64,000 bases of DNA, from assembly GCA_000004985.1 (NCBI GenBank), contig GG738904.1; one strand, written 5' to 3'. The notes beneath the pieces were generated by a model. It saw only the letters and a program-made list of their open reading frames with translations. It made no database searches and was not told the DNA's origin. Each line of letters starts with the position of its first letter. The first letter of the stretch is position 1. The DNA comes from Naegleria gruberi. Taxonomy: Eukaryota. A program made the position numbers and the translations under genes. Below, in pieces: positions 7,177 through 12,263 of this stretch.

Positions 7177-9357
7177 TTATTGTTTATCATTTTTATGACC
7201 ACCAGTGTACATTCCCACAACATTTGAATTACTTCCATTATTAAACTCTGATTCACTTGAATATTGTAATTGACAATCATCTTCTGGTAAAAATTTCAAA
7301 ATAAATTCACCAATCGATGGTGGAACCAAAACTTGAGCTGGATTGGTGCTCTTCTTATCACTTCCTCTAATCATGGAAGACCACGAGCTCAATAAACCAC
7401 CTCCACTACTACTACTACTGCCACCACTCATCGATGAATTCTGATGTGATGAGGTAATGCTTAATGATGGTTGAGTTGAATTCAAAATTTGAGTAATTGA
7501 ATTGTTCAATGAATTTTCATCCAATACGCTCTTCTTGATCTTGAAATTCATTTGAACATCCTTAATGTTGGTAATGTGATTTTGGAGAGCTGCTTGAATG
7601 TGACTGGTCAAGTATGAAGTCATGCAGTGAATTCTCTCAGTAGATTGAGAAGCCAACCAGATACGAATCAAAGCATAGGTCAATTGATTGTACTTTTGTC
7701 CAACTTCAGAGTCCTTCTTTGCCAAAAAGACATGATTAATAACTCGATTTCCACTTCCAGAAGTAAAGAATGGAGCAAATCCAACTGTAATGTTCTGACC
7801 ATTCGAAGAGGATCCATTCACAATATTCACCTCCTTACTTCTCAATTCTCCAGGGAAGGCATCGACAACATATCTCTGAACCATCTTGTTGAAATCTTCC
7901 AAAGTTTCACACTCTTTAAAATTGTGAACGACTACTACGGTAATCTTTCTTGGTTTTCCAGTGGTTGGATTAATACCAGTATCTCTCCTATTCAATAAAT
8001 CGTACAATTTCTCATGTTCTTCCCATGTCATTTCATTTACAACGTAGAGAATAAAGTGAGACATGTTCAACAGAACTTCCTCAATGGTATCTTCGAGCAT
8101 TCTCTTCTCACGAACGTTTCTCTTAATGGCCTCATTCCATTGTTGCTGTTGAATAATTTCTGGATCGATCCACATTTGTTGTTGAGTGCTTGTGGATGAG
8201 AGTGGAGTAGTTGGCATCTTTTTTGAAGCTGTCAATTGTTGATTTTCATGAACGATAATCTCATCAGAGGTAGGAACCATTCCTTCCTTTTGAATTTCTC
8301 TCAATTGTCTCTTGACATCTGCCACTCTGACAGCTCCTCTCAATCCCATTGTATCAACAAGTAACCAATCTCTTCCTTGATTATTCTTTGGAACTTTGAA
8401 ACAAAGAGCTGGAGTACTCTGAGTCAATCCAACTCTCAAATCAGATCCACTCAACTCATTCAACAAGTGAGTTTTTCCACTATTCTTAAATCCCAAAACA
8501 CTGACAACACAACTTGGTTGTTGTGTGAATTTGTGTTCAATTTCAGCAAAGTAATTGATATAGTGATGATCACGACGATTACGATGCTTCTTTCTAGAAG
8601 AATTTGATGGATTGGCAGTTGAACTGAATGGATCATCAACATTTGAATCACGTGGAGTCAATTCACCATCTGAAGCACTCGACAAATCTGAATGATCAGT
8701 TGCTGTATTATTACTTGGCAATCCTCCACATGCAAAACTAGGAGATGGAGGTCTAGAAGGTGCATTTTGAATGGCACTTGCAGTTGGCAACACTCCAGGA
8801 ATAATTGCCTGAGTATTAATATAGGAATGATTCGAATTTTGTGTCATTTGATTTTGAATACTATGATAAATATGTTCATTCTGTTCTTGATGAGCTAGAG
8901 CAGCTGCTTGATTCATAGATTCTCTTATTCTATCCAAAATTCTCAATTCCAATTCAGTTGACAATTTAATTGACCATCCCTTATGTGTCAAATGATGAGG
9001 AGAAGGATCATCCATGTCAACAATCAAATCATAATCTTCATGATCATCTGTAAATAAATTTCCACCATTCCATTGATATTGATTGTAATATTCCATCATT
9101 GAAGGTGATAATTGATGAAGAAATTGAGACGAAACTTCTAAATGTCCGCTTCCCAAATTGCCGTTATTATTCGAAACAAAATTATTTTGAAAATGATATT
9201 GATCAGATGAAGACATGGAACTTCTGTTGGAGGAATTAGGAGAGCTGTGATGATAGAAAGCGTGATTACTTGCCACTAATCCTGAAGAATTAATTTTGGA
9301 CAGGTCAGTTATGGCATGTGAAGGACTACCAGTTTGTGAATTGATGGTATTTCCCAT
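7177..9357 (-). CDS. P-loop GTPase-like protein with N-myristoylation-type N-terminus and Q/N/S-rich low-complexity regions
   Basis: ATG at 9357 gives MGNTINS, which matches the PROSITE-style N-myristoylation pattern. Walker A motif VLGFKNSGKTHLLNELSG and a DxxG-like LLVDTMGL. The flanks are long and rich in S, N and Q. Confidence 0.55.
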   Translation of the reverse strand: MGNTINSQTGSPSHAITDLSKINSSGLVASNHAFYHHSSPNSSNRSSMSSSDQYHFQNNFVSNNNGNLGSGHLEVSSQFLHQLSPSMMEYYNQYQWNGGNLFTDDHEDYDLIVDMDDPSPHHLTHKGWSIKLSTELELRILDRIRESMNQAAALAHQEQNEHIYHSIQNQMTQNSNHSYINTQAIIPGVLPTASAIQNAPSRPPSPSFACGGLPSNNTATDHSDLSSASDGELTPRDSNVDDPFSSTANPSNSSRKKHRNRRDHHYINYFAEIEHKFTQQPSCVVSVLGFKNSGKTHLLNELSGSDLRVGLTQSTPALCFKVPKNNQGRDWLLVDTMGLRGAVRVADVKRQLREIQKEGMVPTSDEIIVHENQQLTASKKMPTTPLSSTSTQQQMWIDPEIIQQQQWNEAIKRNVREKRMLEDTIEEVLLNMSHFILYVVNEMTWEEHEKLYDLLNRRDTGINPTTGKPRKITVVVVHNFKECETLEDFNKMVQRYVVDAFPGELRSKEVNIVNGSSSNGQNITVGFAPFFTSGSGNRVINHVFLAKKDSEVGQKYNQLTYALIRIWLASQSTERIHCMTSYLTSHIQAALQNHITNIKDVQMNFKIKKSVLDENSLNNSITQILNSTQPSLSITSSHQNSSMSGGSSSSSGGGLLSSWSSMIRGSDKKSTNPAQVLVPPSIGEFILKFLPEDDCQLQYSSESEFNNGSNSNVVGMYTGGHKNDKQ

Positions 9358-9631: not shown

Positions 9632-10691
9632 CTAGCAAAAAGTTTCTTCAAATGGCTGGCAATTTCCCTTTCCCAAAATTGCAAAATAAACATTATCAAA
9701 CCTATTCTTGAAAGCTGGTTCGTTCAATACTTGTTCGAAACATGACGAAACTGTCTTGGTATCATTCAAGTAAGCTCCACATCCAAATGCTCCCAACACC
9801 AAATCTCTTTCCTCCATCTTTAATGCACAATAGAGCACCATCCTAATCTTTAGTTTCGTATGTTTGATGAATAGTTCCTCATTTAACACTCCGTGCTTAT
9901 CATAATATTTTGAATGATCTGTCTTTCTGAAATATTTGATTCTCAAATCAATGGCACCAGCAGCAGCCACATTAATGAATATACAGGGATCCACAAGTGA
10001 ATAATCGCCAGTTTCTTTAAAGTTTCTAATAATTGGCAATTGAGGAGTATAGGTTACTCCAAATTCCAAAATATGATGAGGATCTTCATCTGTATTCAAT
10101 GCTCGCTTTTCAAGTTCCTTTCCAACAATTTCATTCAAATCAGGATCAATACTATATCTGTAAATTACTGATTTTCTCTCAATGAATTCTTCCTGAGTTC
10201 CTAAATAAGGAACCCAATACTTTCCACAAATTGTTCTTCTCGATGCTTTCAACATTTCCAATTTTAACCATTCAACAATATTTGATGAACCTACCCAAAT
10301 TCAAAACCATTGGCGTTCTTCCAGTTTTTTCAAACAATTCAAAAGCAACTTGCAAACAATCAGCATCCAAAACTTTAAAACAAGTTTTCTTTTCTTCATC
10401 ACTTGGTAATGATGACGATTGTAATTCTATAAATTGTGCAACTTCTTCCTCAGCTTTGTGTTCATCATCATGTCCAAGCAGCACAGTTCCTTCCTTGATT
10501 GTTCGGATGTGGTCCGATAAATTAATTTCCTTCTTTTTCAAATAGTAAGTCTGCTCTGCGAATATTTCCTTATTTTCAGCAAGGACAGAACCAGGCAATC
10601 TGGTGAATGGCAAGAGATTGATGAGGGAGAATGAACAATCGTTGGTTCCTTCTATATTGAGTGTAGGCATTTTTTTATTGTAAAACCCCAT
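9632..10691 (-). CDS. microbial-type poly(ADP-ribose) glycohydrolase-like macro-domain protein (DUF2263-like), two exons
   Basis: Exon 1 is 10691..10292 and exon 2 is 10242..9632. The intron is 10243..10291 (49 nt, GTAGGT...AAAG) in phase 1. Splicing joins ...TPMVLNL to ASRRTICGKYWVPYLGTQEEF, recreating the PARG macro motif VLNLAS followed by QEE. The C-terminal LVLGAFGCGAYLND matches the diphosphate-binding loop of bacterial-type PARG. Confidence 0.5.
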
Positions 10692-10772
10692 TTCATTCTC
10701 AAATGTTCATTGTTCTGTATTGATGGTTAGTTTCTTATGAAGAAGAAATAATATAAGTAAGATTTTGATTTC

Positions 10773-12263
10773 CTAAAGTTTTAACGAAGTCATGGATGAT
10801 AAACTGATCATTGGAGATCTTGGTGATAGCCTCTTTTGCTTTGCATTCCAATCATTTGAAACTTTCTGAATGGTCTTGTTAGAGAATTTGAGTCTTGAAT
10901 AGGAATCTACCAAGTTGCTCAGCACGTGAAGTTGAATATCGGCAAATAAATCATCTGTTAATGCATTTTGATTATCTGCAAAACTAATATTGTCCATAAT
11001 TACGGTCTTTACAGAATAGAGATCAGAGGGCAAATTCAATTGGAAAGGTGAATCTTCGTACAAGTATTTCTTTACCATTCGGTGTGCAATTTTCTTTCTT
11101 TGCCTTAATGCTGTTTCACGTTTATATTTCTCAATATCAGCATAGCACAGCAAATTTTCAGGGCAAAACGACTTTCTCAAATAATCCAAGAATATTTGAA
11201 ATGTTTCCTTATTGGAAATTATCATTTCAATTTCTGAATCACATTCTCTTTTTTCTTTTGAATCTGCATGGATGGCTCTAATTATAGGAATTAAAATTGT
11301 GAGAACCAACTCGAATGTACTGTAAGCTGCAACTACAAATCCAGAAGGAACGAAATAGTCCACAATCTCTACCACTGAAGCAACACTTAAAAATGTAAAG
11401 ATTACTGCAGTCAAGATTTGAGTGGCAACCAAAAGGAAAACTTCCCTCTTAATATGCCAAGTATCATTGTCAACAGTAAAGCAAAGTCCAATAGCAATAA
11501 ATTCCACAATAAAATAGCAAATACTAATTCCCACAACAAATAGAGTTGAGGGAAACCCTAACCCACATCCTTTTCCAAGTGAAATCAAGAGTGCTCCATC
11601 CATAAAGTAATGTTCATTTTGGAAAAAGCTATCCTCTACTACCATAAGCACAAACCACAGAAAGAGTTGGACTCCAATGGAAAGCCAAAATACTATGAGA
11701 GATGCTGTATTGTTGGTGAGAATGGAGTGTGCCTTGATGATGAATTTCTCTCTTGTCGTATTCTCTTCACGAGCTATAACTTGATTATTTTCAAAAGTTT
11801 CCACAACAGATGTCATGACTGATGAATTGACATTCCTATTACTAGTTGATATACTGTTGTTATTACTATTGTTGGAATTTTGTTTGGCTTGAATAAACAA
11901 GCTCTCTGTGTTCTGTTGTTCTTGTTGCATGCAATAGGAGCTTGATAAAGTGTTTGTCTTTATCAAATTGAATCTGTGCTGAAATACTAATCGCAAACAC
12001 CTCAATATTGAAGGCATTGCAAAACAAGGAGGAATTGAATAGCTAACAATACTAAATATCATACAGGGAAATCTAGATCTACCAACCGTAAAACGGAGAA
12101 GAGTAACAGATACATAGATAAAACTCCCTGTTAGTGTAACTACAATACCACTGATGGTACGTGATTGAAGATGTCCACTTTTCCTCTTCTTTATCACTCC
12201 TATGGCACAAATAACAACAAGAATGATGTACAAAACCAAACATGTTGCTGATAATATTGGCAT
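10773..12263 (-). CDS. 7TM receptor-RGS fusion protein
   Basis: Seven hydrophobic helices at the N-terminus. The C-terminal RGS domain reads ETFQIFLDYLRKSFCPENLLCYADIEKYKR...HRMVKKYLYEDSPFQLNLPSDLY...SYSRLKFS. ATG at 12263. Confidence 0.7.
   Translation of the reverse strand: MPILSATCLVLYIILVVICAIGVIKKRKSGHLQSRTISGIVVTLTGSFIYVSVTLLRFTVGRSRFPCMIFSIVSYSIPPCFAMPSILRCLRLVFQHRFNLIKTNTLSSSYCMQQEQQNTESLFIQAKQNSNNSNNNSISTSNRNVNSSVMTSVVETFENNQVIAREENTTREKFIIKAHSILTNNTASLIVFWLSIGVQLFLWFVLMVVEDSFFQNEHYFMDGALLISLGKGCGLGFPSTLFVVGISICYFIVEFIAIGLCFTVDNDTWHIKREVFLLVATQILTAVIFTFLSVASVVEIVDYFVPSGFVVAAYSTFELVLTILIPIIRAIHADSKEKRECDSEIEMIISNKETFQIFLDYLRKSFCPENLLCYADIEKYKRETALRQRKKIAHRMVKKYLYEDSPFQLNLPSDLYSVKTVIMDNISFADNQNALTDDLFADIQLHVLSNLVDSYSRLKFSNKTIQKVSNDWNAKQKRLSPRSPMISLSSMTSLKL

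What the first reader, a model, noticed from the sequence alone, without database searches (positions are those of the whole stretch)
9632..10691. Bacterial-type PARG (DUF2263 macro domain) gene whose catalytic motif is restored only after removing a 49-nt intron
The two ORFs are in different frames. A GTAGGT...AAAG intron at 10243-10291 joins them in phase 1. The junction codon becomes Ala and produces VLNLAS-RRTICGKYWVPYLGTQEEF, which is the macro/PARG VLNxAS block followed by the catalytic QEE. The C-terminal GAFGCGAY matches the diphosphate-binding loop. The usual GGG of the GGG-X6-8-QEE signature is absent (CGKYWVPYLG), so activity may be altered. A DUF2263-type PARG in a eukaryote carrying a spliceosomal intron argues for a resident, possibly anciently transferred, gene rather than contamination.
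Basis: partly seen in the sequence, partly recalled or inferred. Interest (0 to 1): 0.6.

Follow-up and report, generated by a model that had tools for sequence, protein, structure and literature searches.

The report
Annotated Naegleria bacterial-type PARG gene
This is a real two-exon gene of the amoeba Naegleria gruberi for a bacterial-type poly(ADP-ribose) glycohydrolase-like enzyme, but the gene, its 49-base intron and the family's presence in this organism are already public, so the finding is correct but ordinary.

Summary
On the minus strand, two ORFs in different frames (10691..10272 and 10261..9632) are joined by a 49-nt GTAGGT...GAAAG intron. The spliced product reads VLNL-A-SRRTICGKYWVPYLGTQEEF. 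It passes the curated thresholds of PF10021 (46.7 vs 23.5 bits) and TIGR02452 (74.2 vs 50).

The window is Naegleria gruberi. The same splice, started at the second Met (10670), gives exactly XP_002671617.1 / EFC38873.1 / D2VWB9, 'predicted protein NAEGRDRAFT_73327'. So the gene model has been public since the 2010 annotation. Perina et al. 2014 already reported up to seven bacterial-type PARGs in N. gruberi, several with imperfect GGG-X6-8-QEE signatures.

N. lovaniensis and N. fowleri orthologues (54-55% identity) carry an intron at the same codon and phase. They keep the same neighbouring gene and evolve under purifying selection (dN/dS 0.10). The gene is therefore resident, not contamination.

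An AlphaFold model of the N. lovaniensis orthologue matches T. curvata and D. radiodurans PARG. The CGK loop is a clade feature, and Cys at the first Gly position is common in relatives. The clade also lacks the loop that forms the 'ribose cap' in TcPARG.

Verdict: correct, already known, low interest.

The parts
10295..10670 (-). Exon 1 of NAEGRDRAFT_73327, from the annotated start Met (ATG 10670-10668) to the donor site. An in-frame upstream ATG at 10691 would add 7 residues (MGFYNKK). Encodes the N-terminal helical extension and the first strands of the macrodomain, ending ...PMVLNL plus the first base of the Ala codon.
   Evidence: The exact match of the Met8-start spliced product to XP_002671617.1 is. 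Orthologue N-termini align to Met8. ORF1 alone hits PF10021 positions 3-82 at 27.6 bits.
10246..10294 (-). Spliceosomal-type intron, 49 nt, phase 1: GTAGGTTCATCAAATATTGTTGAATGGTTAAAATTGGAAATGTTGAAAG. It contains an in-frame TGA, so an unspliced message would end at ...NLGRFIKYC*.
   Evidence: Sequence. Best of 133 candidate introns. Same codon and phase as intron 1 of the N. lovaniensis (115 nt) and N. fowleri (137 nt) orthologues. Used in the public gene model. No transcript evidence was available.
9632..10245 (-). Exon 2, including the stop codon TAG at 9634-9632. Encodes the catalytic loop, the rest of the macrodomain and the C-terminus.
   Evidence: ORF2 alone hits TIGR02452 positions 133-257 at 57.8 bits.
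10187..10228 (-). Catalytic loop CGKYWVPYLGTQEE (residues 139-152 of the 336-aa numbering). It is the counterpart of the PARG signature GGG-X6-8-QEE. The Glu-Glu pair and the middle Gly are retained. The first Gly is Cys, the third is Lys, and there is a one-residue insertion (Trp143).
   Evidence: The roles of the two Glu residues come from PMC4030884.
9770..9793 (-). Diphosphate-binding loop GAFGCGAY (residues 284-291), the counterpart of the macrodomain-wide GVFG motif. The aromatic residue is Tyr here; among the 95 relatives it is Phe in 83 and Tyr in 12.
   Evidence: The role of the aromatic residue comes from PMC4030884.

Best explanation
The locus is the already annotated Naegleria gruberi gene NAEGRDRAFT_73327 (XP_002671617.1, UniProt D2VWB9). 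It is a two-exon nuclear gene on the minus strand, and its 49-nt GT-AG intron must be removed to give a 329-aa protein (336 aa if the upstream ATG is used). The protein belongs to the microbial (bacterial-type) PARG family (PF10021 / TIGR02452): a macrodomain with a small N-terminal helical extension.

Inferred mechanism, by homology with T. curvata and D. radiodurans PARG: the macrodomain cleft binds an ADP-ribose unit. The GAFGCGAY loop holds the diphosphate, and its aromatic residue strains the ribose. Of the two consecutive glutamates of the QEE motif (E151, E152), the second protonates the leaving 2'-OH and the first activates the attacking water. The O-glycosidic ribose-ribose bond of poly(ADP-ribose) is cleaved and ADP-ribose is released.

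Shown here: gene structure, family membership, fold (on the orthologue), retention of every residue invariant in the relatives aligned here, conservation and purifying selection within Naegleria.

Inferred, not shown: splicing in vivo, catalytic activity, and the substrate. The Naegleria clade has a remodelled catalytic loop (CG[KR]-x8-QEE) and lacks the C-terminal loop that forms the ribose cap in TcPARG. Its substrate range, or its exo versus endo mode, may therefore differ from the characterised bacterial enzymes.
For: Identity of the locus:
- The flanking ORFs are exact N. gruberi proteins EFC38872 and EFC38874.
- The Met8-start spliced product is an exact match to EFC38873.1 / XP_002671617.1 / D2VWB9.

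Family membership:
- PF10021 scores 46.7 bits against a threshold of 23.5.
- TIGR02452 scores 74.2 bits against a cutoff of 50, covering 2-257 of 266 profile positions.
- A profile of 95 relatives hits T. curvata PARG at 2e-40 and D. radiodurans PARG at 4e-40.

Fold: the AlphaFold2 model of the N. lovaniensis orthologue has pLDDT 84.6 and pTM 0.86. Its top Foldseek PDB hits are 3SIG/3SIH (E 2e-16, TMt 0.76-0.79) and 5ZDB.

Residues: all 19 columns invariant across the 95 aligned sequences are kept, including N131, A133, G140, Q150, E151, E152, R156, R206, K265 and G284-A290.

Intron: it is the best of 133 candidates. Its position and phase are shared with N. lovaniensis and N. fowleri.

Selection: dN/dS is 0.10 between N. 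lovaniensis and N. fowleri, and dN is 0.385 against a saturated dS for N. gruberi versus N. lovaniensis.

Neighbourhood: the adjacent GTPase-like gene is conserved.

Literature: the mechanism and the roles of the two Glu residues and the aromatic residue are in PMC4030884 and PMC6445106. N. gruberi has PARPs and up to seven bactPARGs (PMC4245714).
Against: - No transcript or protein evidence for splicing or expression was available. The exact protein is recorded only from the genome, on 1 contig.
- The strict GGG of the signature is not met: the loop is CGK with an extra Trp, and PYLGT replaces xGAGA.
- The catalytic loop is the least confident part of the core of the model, with pLDDT 64-69 for residues 131-150.
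- The loop aligned to the TcPARG ribose cap (Asp261...Arg268) is deleted.
- The nearest bacterial relatives are NMNAT or HD fusions. This may point to NAD/ADP-ribose metabolite chemistry rather than PAR.
- No member with a CGx loop has been characterised biochemically, to my knowledge.
Confidence: 0.6

Rival explanations
1. Same gene and same fold, but a different substrate. Under this reading the Naegleria-clade enzyme is an ADP-ribosyl hydrolase acting on something other than the ends of PAR chains. Candidates are mono-ADP-ribosylated proteins or nucleic acids, O-acetyl-ADP-ribose or another NAD-derived metabolite, or internal (endo) cleavage of PAR.
For: - The catalytic loop is remodelled relative to the characterised enzymes (CG[KR]YW.PYLG[ST]QEE).
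- A loop of about 10 residues, present in about 90% of relatives and aligned to the TcPARG ribose cap, is missing.
- In D. radiodurans PARG, loss of the cap arginine is associated with endo activity (PMC6445106).
- The closest bacterial relatives are fused to NMN adenylyltransferase (PF01467) or HD (PF01966) domains.
- N. gruberi has several other bactPARG paralogues, three of them with a perfect signature, which leaves room for subfunctionalisation (PMC4245714).
Against: QEE, the diphosphate loop and every other invariant residue of the family are kept. No data exist on any alternative substrate. The ribose-cap assignment rests on a sequence alignment only.
Confidence: 0.27
2. A catalytically dead ADP-ribose or PAR reader. 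The macrodomain binds the ligand, but the altered loop no longer supports hydrolysis.
For: Two of the three signature glycines are replaced and one residue is inserted. A conserved signature Gly is reported as important in vivo in Arabidopsis PARG (PMC4030884). Perina et al. also doubt the functionality of the N. gruberi copies with imperfect signatures.
Against: Both catalytic Glu residues, the invariant middle Gly and the aromatic residue of the diphosphate loop are conserved across four eukaryotic sequences that are only 39-55% identical overall. Cys at the first Gly position occurs in 42 of 95 relatives, so it is a normal family state. dN/dS is 0.10.
Confidence: 0.09
3. A frameshifted pseudogene, or a bacterial contaminant: the '49-nt intron' is a coincidental GT...AG around a frameshift.
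For: No transcript evidence was obtainable. Many GT...AG pairs can join the two frames: 133 candidates.
Against: - Both ORFs are intact.
- The intron sits at the same codon and phase as annotated introns in two other Naegleria genomes.
- The splice gives the best family score.
- All invariant residues are kept.
- The locus is embedded between eukaryotic genes of the N. gruberi scaffold, with GC content like its surroundings (0.34-0.35).
- A second N. gruberi-like strain carries the same exon 1 with only 3 amino-acid changes (P0125).
Confidence: 0.03

Closest known systems
XP_002671617.1 / EFC38873.1 / UniProt D2VWB9, 'predicted protein NAEGRDRAFT_73327' of Naegleria gruberi (2010 genome annotation)
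   Same: Identical sequence and identical splice. The 329-aa product from ATG 10670, with intron 10294..10246 removed, is an exact match.
   Different: The public name, as given in this collection, is only 'predicted protein'.
Naegleria lovaniensis C9374_003491 (P0001) and N. fowleri FDP41_001486 (P0002), named by UniProt 'Microbial-type PARG catalytic domain-containing protein'
   Same: They are 54-55% identical over 97-98% of the length. They share the CGKYW.PYLG[ST]QEE loop, the C-terminal loop deletion, the position and phase of intron 1 and the neighbouring GTPase-like gene.
   Different: They carry two additional introns that N. gruberi lacks. Their intron 1 is 115 and 137 nt rather than 49 nt. 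The gene lies on the other side of the neighbour and is inverted relative to it.
Thermomonospora curvata PARG (PDB 3SIG) and Deinococcus radiodurans PARG (PDB 5ZDA-5ZDG), the characterised bacterial-type PARGs
   Same: Same family models (PF10021 / TIGR02452) and same fold (TM 0.76-0.79 for the orthologue model). The NxAS strand, the QEE glutamates and the GxxGCGxF/Y diphosphate loop are shared.
   Different: - Only 22-25% identity.
- GGG is replaced by CGK, with a one-residue insertion in the loop.
- The ribose-cap loop (TcPARG Asp261...Arg268) is absent by alignment.
- The N-terminal region is longer.
- The gene is eukaryotic and contains an intron.
The bactPARG paralogues of N. gruberi and other eukaryotes described by Perina et al. 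2014 (PMC4245714)
   Same: That paper reports bactPARGs in all eukaryotic supergroups except Plantae, with up to seven in N. gruberi. Only three of those have a perfect GGG-X6-8-QEE. The present gene fits that description.
   Different: I could not verify whether this particular accession is among the seven, because no accession list was held. The variants the paper quotes are GGA/H-X7-QEE, not CGK-X8-QEE. No other N. gruberi paralogue appeared among the 120 hits listed (151 passed E <= 0.001), so the paralogues are probably more distant than many bacterial sequences.
Canonical eukaryotic PARG (human, Tetrahymena; PF05028)
   Same: A distantly related macrodomain catalytic core with the QEE glutamates. 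Mouse PARG appears only as a weak structural hit (E 2e-5, TMq 0.35).
   Different: There is no Pfam hit to the canonical PARG family. The protein has no large N-terminal accessory domain and no tyrosine clasp (literature).

Membership tests
Microbial / bacterial-type PARG (PF10021 PARG_cat_microb, formerly DUF2263; TIGR02452) | Scores above the curated thresholds of the family HMMs over most of the model length | tested here: met
   PF10021 scores 46.7 bits against a gathering threshold of 23.5, over profile positions 3-145 of 146. TIGR02452 scores 74.2 bits against a cutoff of 50, over positions 2-257 of 266. The public 329-aa protein gives the same result (74.3 bits).
Microbial / bacterial-type PARG | Macrodomain fold with a small N-terminal helical extension, superposable on T. 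curvata PARG | tested here: met
The model has pLDDT 84.6 and pTM 0.86. Foldseek top hits are 3SIG/3SIH at E 2e-16, TMt 0.76-0.79, followed by 5ZDB.
Microbial / bacterial-type PARG | Two consecutive catalytic glutamates in a QEE motif at the end of the catalytic loop | tested here: met
   Q150, E151 and E152 are present and invariant in all 95 aligned sequences.
Microbial / bacterial-type PARG | Strict GGG at the start of the signature GGG-X6-8-QEE | tested here: not met
   The loop is CGK-X8-QEE. Only the middle Gly (G140) is kept, and it is the only one of the three that is invariant in the family sample. The first position is Cys in 42 of 95 relatives. The third is G in 76, F in 10, Y in 4, K in 3 and R in 1. 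The spacing of 8 lies within the 6-8 range.
Microbial / bacterial-type PARG | Diphosphate-binding loop (GVFG-type) with a conserved aromatic residue | tested here: met
   The loop is G284-A-F-G-C-G-A-Y291. G284, A285, G287, C288, G289 and A290 are invariant. Position 291 is F in 83 and Y in 12 of the 95 relatives.
Microbial / bacterial-type PARG | C-terminal 'ribose cap' (TcPARG Asp261 / Arg268) that restricts the enzyme to exo-glycohydrolase action. This is a feature of TcPARG and is not universal: D. radiodurans PARG has Thr at the Arg position. | tested here: not met
   By sequence alignment only. The Asp261 position is Lys326. The following 11-column stretch, occupied in about 84-90 of 95 relatives at most of its columns, is deleted in all three Naegleria proteins and in P0004. 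This was not examined in 3D.
Microbial / bacterial-type PARG | Hydrolysis of poly(ADP-ribose) to ADP-ribose | not testable with these tools
   This needs a biochemical assay.
Canonical eukaryotic PARG (PF05028) | Match to the canonical PARG catalytic domain with its accessory domain and tyrosine clasp | tested here: not met
   PF10021 is the only Pfam family found at E <= 1. Mouse PARG is only a weak structural match (E 2e-5, TMq 0.35).
Spliceosomal (U2-type GT-AG) intron | GT...AG boundaries whose removal restores a single reading frame colinear with homologues | tested here: met
   The intron GTAGGT...GAAAG at 10294..10246 is in phase 1. It gives the best family score of 133 candidates. Introns as short as 51 nt are annotated in the N. 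lovaniensis orthologue.
Spliceosomal (U2-type GT-AG) intron | Positional conservation in orthologues | tested here: met
   The intron sits in the same Ala codon, in phase 1, in N. lovaniensis and N. fowleri.
Spliceosomal (U2-type GT-AG) intron | Spliced junction observed in RNA | not testable with these tools
   No transcript data were available. The exact protein is recorded only from the genome record.

The most novel reading that the evidence does not exclude
The Naegleria-type proteins, together with an orthologue on an unidentified 50%-GC eukaryotic metagenome contig, may form a distinct eukaryotic subfamily of microbial-type PARGs. The subfamily is defined by a CG[KR]-x8-QEE catalytic loop and by loss of the ribose-cap loop. 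Its members might have a different activity from the characterised bacterial enzymes: for example endo-cleavage of PAR, or hydrolysis of a non-PAR ADP-ribosyl substrate. That would be a specialised paralogue alongside the 'perfect-signature' bactPARGs in the same genome.
Probability: 0.25. Interest if true: 0.35.

Novelty: already known. Interest (0 to 1): 0.12.

Why it matters
It matters little beyond confirming the annotation. The gene model is already public. The presence of several bacterial-type PARGs with imperfect signatures in N. gruberi was published in 2014.

Three modest points add value. First, the intron position is shared by three Naegleria species, which dates the gene to before their divergence and excludes contamination. 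Second, the 'missing GGG' is a conserved clade feature, and Cys at the first position is common in the family. Third, the clade has lost the loop that forms the ribose cap in TcPARG, which gives a concrete, testable hypothesis about substrate mode.

If these enzymes were shown to differ functionally, that would help explain why Naegleria keeps so many bactPARG paralogues.

Tried and rejected
I used the N. lovaniensis orthologue as a proxy.
- The afdb50 fold library was not available.
- The Slade et al. 2011 Nature paper was not held under the id I tried. I cited the mechanism from PMC4030884 and PMC6445106 instead.
- The Perina et al. supplement held no accession list. A full-text search for D2VWB9, XP_002671617, NAEGRDRAFT_73327 and EFC38873 found nothing. 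I therefore could not confirm that this copy is among the published seven.
- The first homology search did not list the N. gruberi protein itself, and the 336-aa model was not in the collection. This briefly suggested an unannotated gene. That idea was rejected when the Met8-start model matched EFC38873.1 exactly. Its 90% cluster is represented by a 132-aa fragment from another strain.
- The look-up of encoding contigs had no record for the N. gruberi neighbour.
- A heuristic survey of other short introns in the window, meant to derive local splice-site preferences, gave too many ambiguous candidates to be useful. A literature search for Naegleria intron statistics was also unhelpful.
- No second copy of the gene lies in the window (tblastn).
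- A viral origin was considered. The family occurs on giant-virus and large IMG/VR contigs, but none is closer than about 33% identity, so no donor can be named.
- Seven alternative gene models were looked up and are not in the collection.

Full report
**1. What is in the sequence**

The feature lies on the minus strand. ORF listing shows a 139-aa ORF at 10691..10272 and a 209-aa ORF at 10261..9632, in different frames.

The reverse complement contains the string GTAGGTTCATCAAATATTGTTGAATGGTTAAAATTGGAAATGTTGAAAG. It is 49 nt long and occupies 10294..10246. Taken literally, that interval begins GGTTCA, ends AGCAT, and gives NLGTRR at the junction.

Removing 10246-10294 joins the two ORFs in phase 1. 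The junction codon is G|CA = Ala. Left unspliced, exon 1 runs into a TGA inside the intron (...NLGRFIKYC*).

The QEE motif and the entire CGK...QEE loop lie in exon 2. Splicing therefore restores the frame and the VLNL|AS strand, not the catalytic motif itself.

**2. Is the splice more than chance?**

I enumerated every GT/GC...AG pair of 20-399 nt that yields a stop-free in-frame product. There are 133. I scored each against an HMM built from the relatives without the window sequences. The 10294..10246 intron scores best, at 212.2 bits; the next best scores 199.7.

The two ORFs match consecutive parts of the same family models:
- ORF1 alone matches PF10021 profile positions 3-82 (27.6 bits).
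- ORF2 alone matches TIGR02452 positions 133-257 (57.8 bits).
- The spliced protein matches PF10021 positions 3-145 (46.7 bits, gathering threshold 23.5) and TIGR02452 positions 2-257 (74.2 bits, cutoff 50).

**3. Whose gene is it?**

The two flanking ORFs are exact matches to Naegleria gruberi proteins on a 297-kb scaffold:
- EFC38872.1 (NAEGRDRAFT_73326)
- EFC38874.1 (NAEGRDRAFT_73328)

The 336-aa model was not in the protein collection. The same splice started at the second Met (ATG 10670; MPTLNIEG...) is an exact match to EFC38873.1 / XP_002671617.1 / UniProt D2VWB9, 'predicted protein NAEGRDRAFT_73327'. So the gene, with this very intron, is already in the public N. gruberi annotation.

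It was missing from the first homology list. Its 90% cluster is represented by a 132-aa fragment (P0125) from another N. gruberi-like strain, in which exon 1 is read through into the intron; why that fragment was not listed either is unexplained.

The orthologues' N-termini align to Met8, so 10670 is the better-supported start.

**4. Relatives and gene history**

The best homologues are N. lovaniensis (P0001, 55% identity, 337 aa) and N. fowleri (P0002, 54%, 331 aa). UniProt names both 'Microbial-type PARG catalytic domain-containing protein'.

I reconstructed their exon structures from the genomic loci. Each has three GT-AG introns: 115, 51 and 59 nt in N. lovaniensis, and 137, 73 and 70 nt in N. 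fowleri. Their first intron lies in the same Ala codon, in phase 1, as the N. gruberi intron. The other two introns are absent from N. gruberi. One is in phase 1, in the Gly of LG[ST]QEE. The other is in phase 2, in the Asn of LND.

The adjacent GTPase-like gene (window 7177-9357; PF01926) is also the neighbour in both other species, although the PARG gene lies on its other side and is inverted.

dN/dS is 0.10 between N. lovaniensis and N. fowleri. For N. gruberi versus N. lovaniensis, dN is 0.385 against a saturated dS.

A further orthologue (P0004, about 40% identical, loop CGRWDSPYLGTQEE) sits on a 241-kb, 50%-GC metagenome contig. Its neighbours are HECT, SPRY/EF-hand and split ABCA genes, so the contig is eukaryotic. 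Its intron is at a different place.

Beyond these, the relatives are bacterial or metagenomic at about 25-33% identity. The top ones are fusions with NMN adenylyltransferase (PF01467), one of them named as a Clostridia bacterium. Giant viruses (Pandoravirus, Harvfovirus, Bodo saltans virus and others) and many IMG/VR contigs also carry the family, none closer than about 33%.

The gene is therefore resident in Naegleria and predates the split of the three species. A bacterial origin is plausible, but I ran no named phylogeny, so no donor can be given.

**5. Structure and active site**

The model has pLDDT 84.6 and pTM 0.86. The catalytic loop is the weakest core region, with pLDDT 64-69.

Foldseek against the PDB puts T. 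curvata PARG first (3SIG/3SIH, E 2e-16, TMt 0.76-0.79). D. radiodurans PARG follows (5ZDB, E 3e-15), ahead of generic macrodomains. A profile of the 95-sequence alignment hits the same two enzymes at 2e-40 and 4e-40.

In that alignment, 19 columns are invariant across all 95 sequences, the N. gruberi protein included: L130, N131, A133, G140, Q150, E151, E152, R156, R206, K265, L281-A285 and G287-A290.

The 'missing GGG' is less exceptional than it looks:
- The first Gly position is Cys in 42 of 95 relatives.
- The middle Gly is invariant, and it is retained here.
- The third position is G in 76, F in 10, Y in 4, K in 3 and R in 1.

What is specific to the Naegleria clade is Lys/Arg at the third position, a one-residue insertion (Trp143), and PYLG[TS] in place of xGAGA.

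The aromatic residue of the diphosphate loop is Tyr here; it is Tyr in 12 of 95 relatives and Phe in 83.

A second clade feature emerged. An 11-column stretch after the last strand, occupied in about 84-90 of the 95 relatives at most of its columns, is deleted in the three Naegleria proteins and in P0004. The profile alignment to 3SIG aligns FAVWD (Asp261 in the literature numbering) with FAILGK. By that alignment the deleted stretch corresponds to the TcPARG ribose cap that carries Arg268. This is an alignment inference and was not checked in 3D.

**6. How it most likely works**

According to the literature, the second Glu of the signature protonates the leaving 2'-OH and the first activates the water. 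The aromatic residue of the GVFG loop strains the terminal ADP-ribose (PMC4030884). The ribose cap makes TcPARG an obligate exo-enzyme. DrPARG, which has Thr in place of the cap Arg, also shows endo activity (PMC6445106).

The N. gruberi protein keeps the whole catalytic apparatus. The best-supported reading is therefore an active ADP-ribose glycohydrolase of the bacterial PARG type.

Because the loop is remodelled and the cap is missing, a different binding mode or substrate is a serious rival (about 0.27). A non-catalytic reader is less likely (about 0.09). A pseudogene or contaminant is nearly excluded (about 0.03).

Splicing in vivo and activity are both inferred, not shown.

**7. Comparison with what is known, and novelty**

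Perina et al. 2014 state three things (PMC4245714):
- BactPARGs occur in all eukaryotic supergroups except Plantae.
- N. gruberi has up to seven of them.

The exact protein is public, and it passes the Pfam gathering threshold. The finding is therefore correct but already known. I could not verify whether this accession is one of the published seven.

The only mildly new points are the intron-position conservation across three species, the intron differences between species, and the recognition of a CG[KR]/cap-less eukaryotic subclade.

**8. Verdict**

- Observation: confirmed, with a 3-nt coordinate slip.
- Interpretation: supported.
- Novelty: already known.
- Interest: low (0.12).

Noticed in passing
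window 9632-10245 (-), compared with L001 6558-6608 and 7036-7094, and L002 6571-6643 and 7071-7140: N. gruberi lacks two introns that the N. lovaniensis and N. fowleri orthologues have: one in phase 1 in the Gly of LG[ST]QEE, one in phase 2 in the Asn of LND. The metagenome fragment P0003 (57% identical) begins exactly at the first of these sites. That suggests the intron is older and was lost in N. gruberi.
   Followed up: partly
window 7177-9357 (-) and 10773-12263 (-); L001 7296-9710; L002 7339-9652 and 13224-13276: The neighbours are a GTPase-like gene (PF01926 MMR_HSR1, NAEGRDRAFT_73326) and an RGS-domain membrane protein (PF00615, NAEGRDRAFT_73328). The GTPase-like gene is also adjacent to the PARG orthologue in the other two Naegleria species, but there the PARG gene lies on the opposite side and is convergent. 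This indicates a local rearrangement.
   Followed up: partly
L003 7453-8696 (+), JGI metagenome 3300073880 contig Ga0633746_000100 (241 kb, 50% GC); also L004: An unidentified eukaryote (its neighbours are HECT, SPRY/EF-hand/ZZ and split ABCA genes) carries an orthologue of the Naegleria-type protein. It has the same CG[KR]...PYLGTQEE loop and the same C-terminal loop deletion, but its intron is at a different position.
   Followed up: partly
window 9650-9670 (-), residues 325-330 of the 336-aa protein: The Naegleria clade lacks a loop of about 10 residues that about 90% of relatives have. By alignment to 3SIG it corresponds to the TcPARG ribose cap (Asp261...Arg268). The Asp261 position is Lys in N. 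gruberi.
   Followed up: partly
proteins P0005, P0007, P0008, P0013, P0019, P0105 (PF10021+PF01467) and P0026 (PF10021+PF01966): The closest bacterial relatives are about 520-aa fusions of NMN/NaMN adenylyltransferase (or an HD domain) with the PARG-like domain, one of them named as a Clostridia bacterium. P0005, the one read, has a CGG rather than GGG loop. This points to a link with NAD/ADP-ribose metabolism that I did not explore.
   Followed up: no
BFVD hits; IMG/VR loci L005-L083: Microbial-type PARG domains are encoded by many giant viruses of protists (Pandoravirus neocaledonia, Harvfovirus, Tupanvirus, Orpheovirus, Marseillevirus, Bodo saltans virus, Catovirus) and by contigs of jumbo-phage size. 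All are at most about 33% identical to the Naegleria protein. Several 'viral' IMG/VR records of 1.9-2.5 Mb look like whole bacterial genomes.
   Followed up: no
P0125 and P0123 (ENA contig of 2,588 bp): A short ENA contig from a second N. gruberi-like strain covers this locus. Its prokaryote-style ORF call reads exon 1 through into the intron (...VLNLGRFIKYC) and differs from the window at 3 of 132 residues. This fragment, not the full protein, represents the 90% cluster, and neither was listed in the first homology search.
   Followed up: partly
window 10692-10720 (-): Two short upstream ATGs precede the coding ATGs: ATGAACATTTGA, and an out-of-frame ATGAAATGG... that ends in TAG. The annotated start at 10670 sits in an A-rich context (AAAAAAATG).
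   Followed up: no
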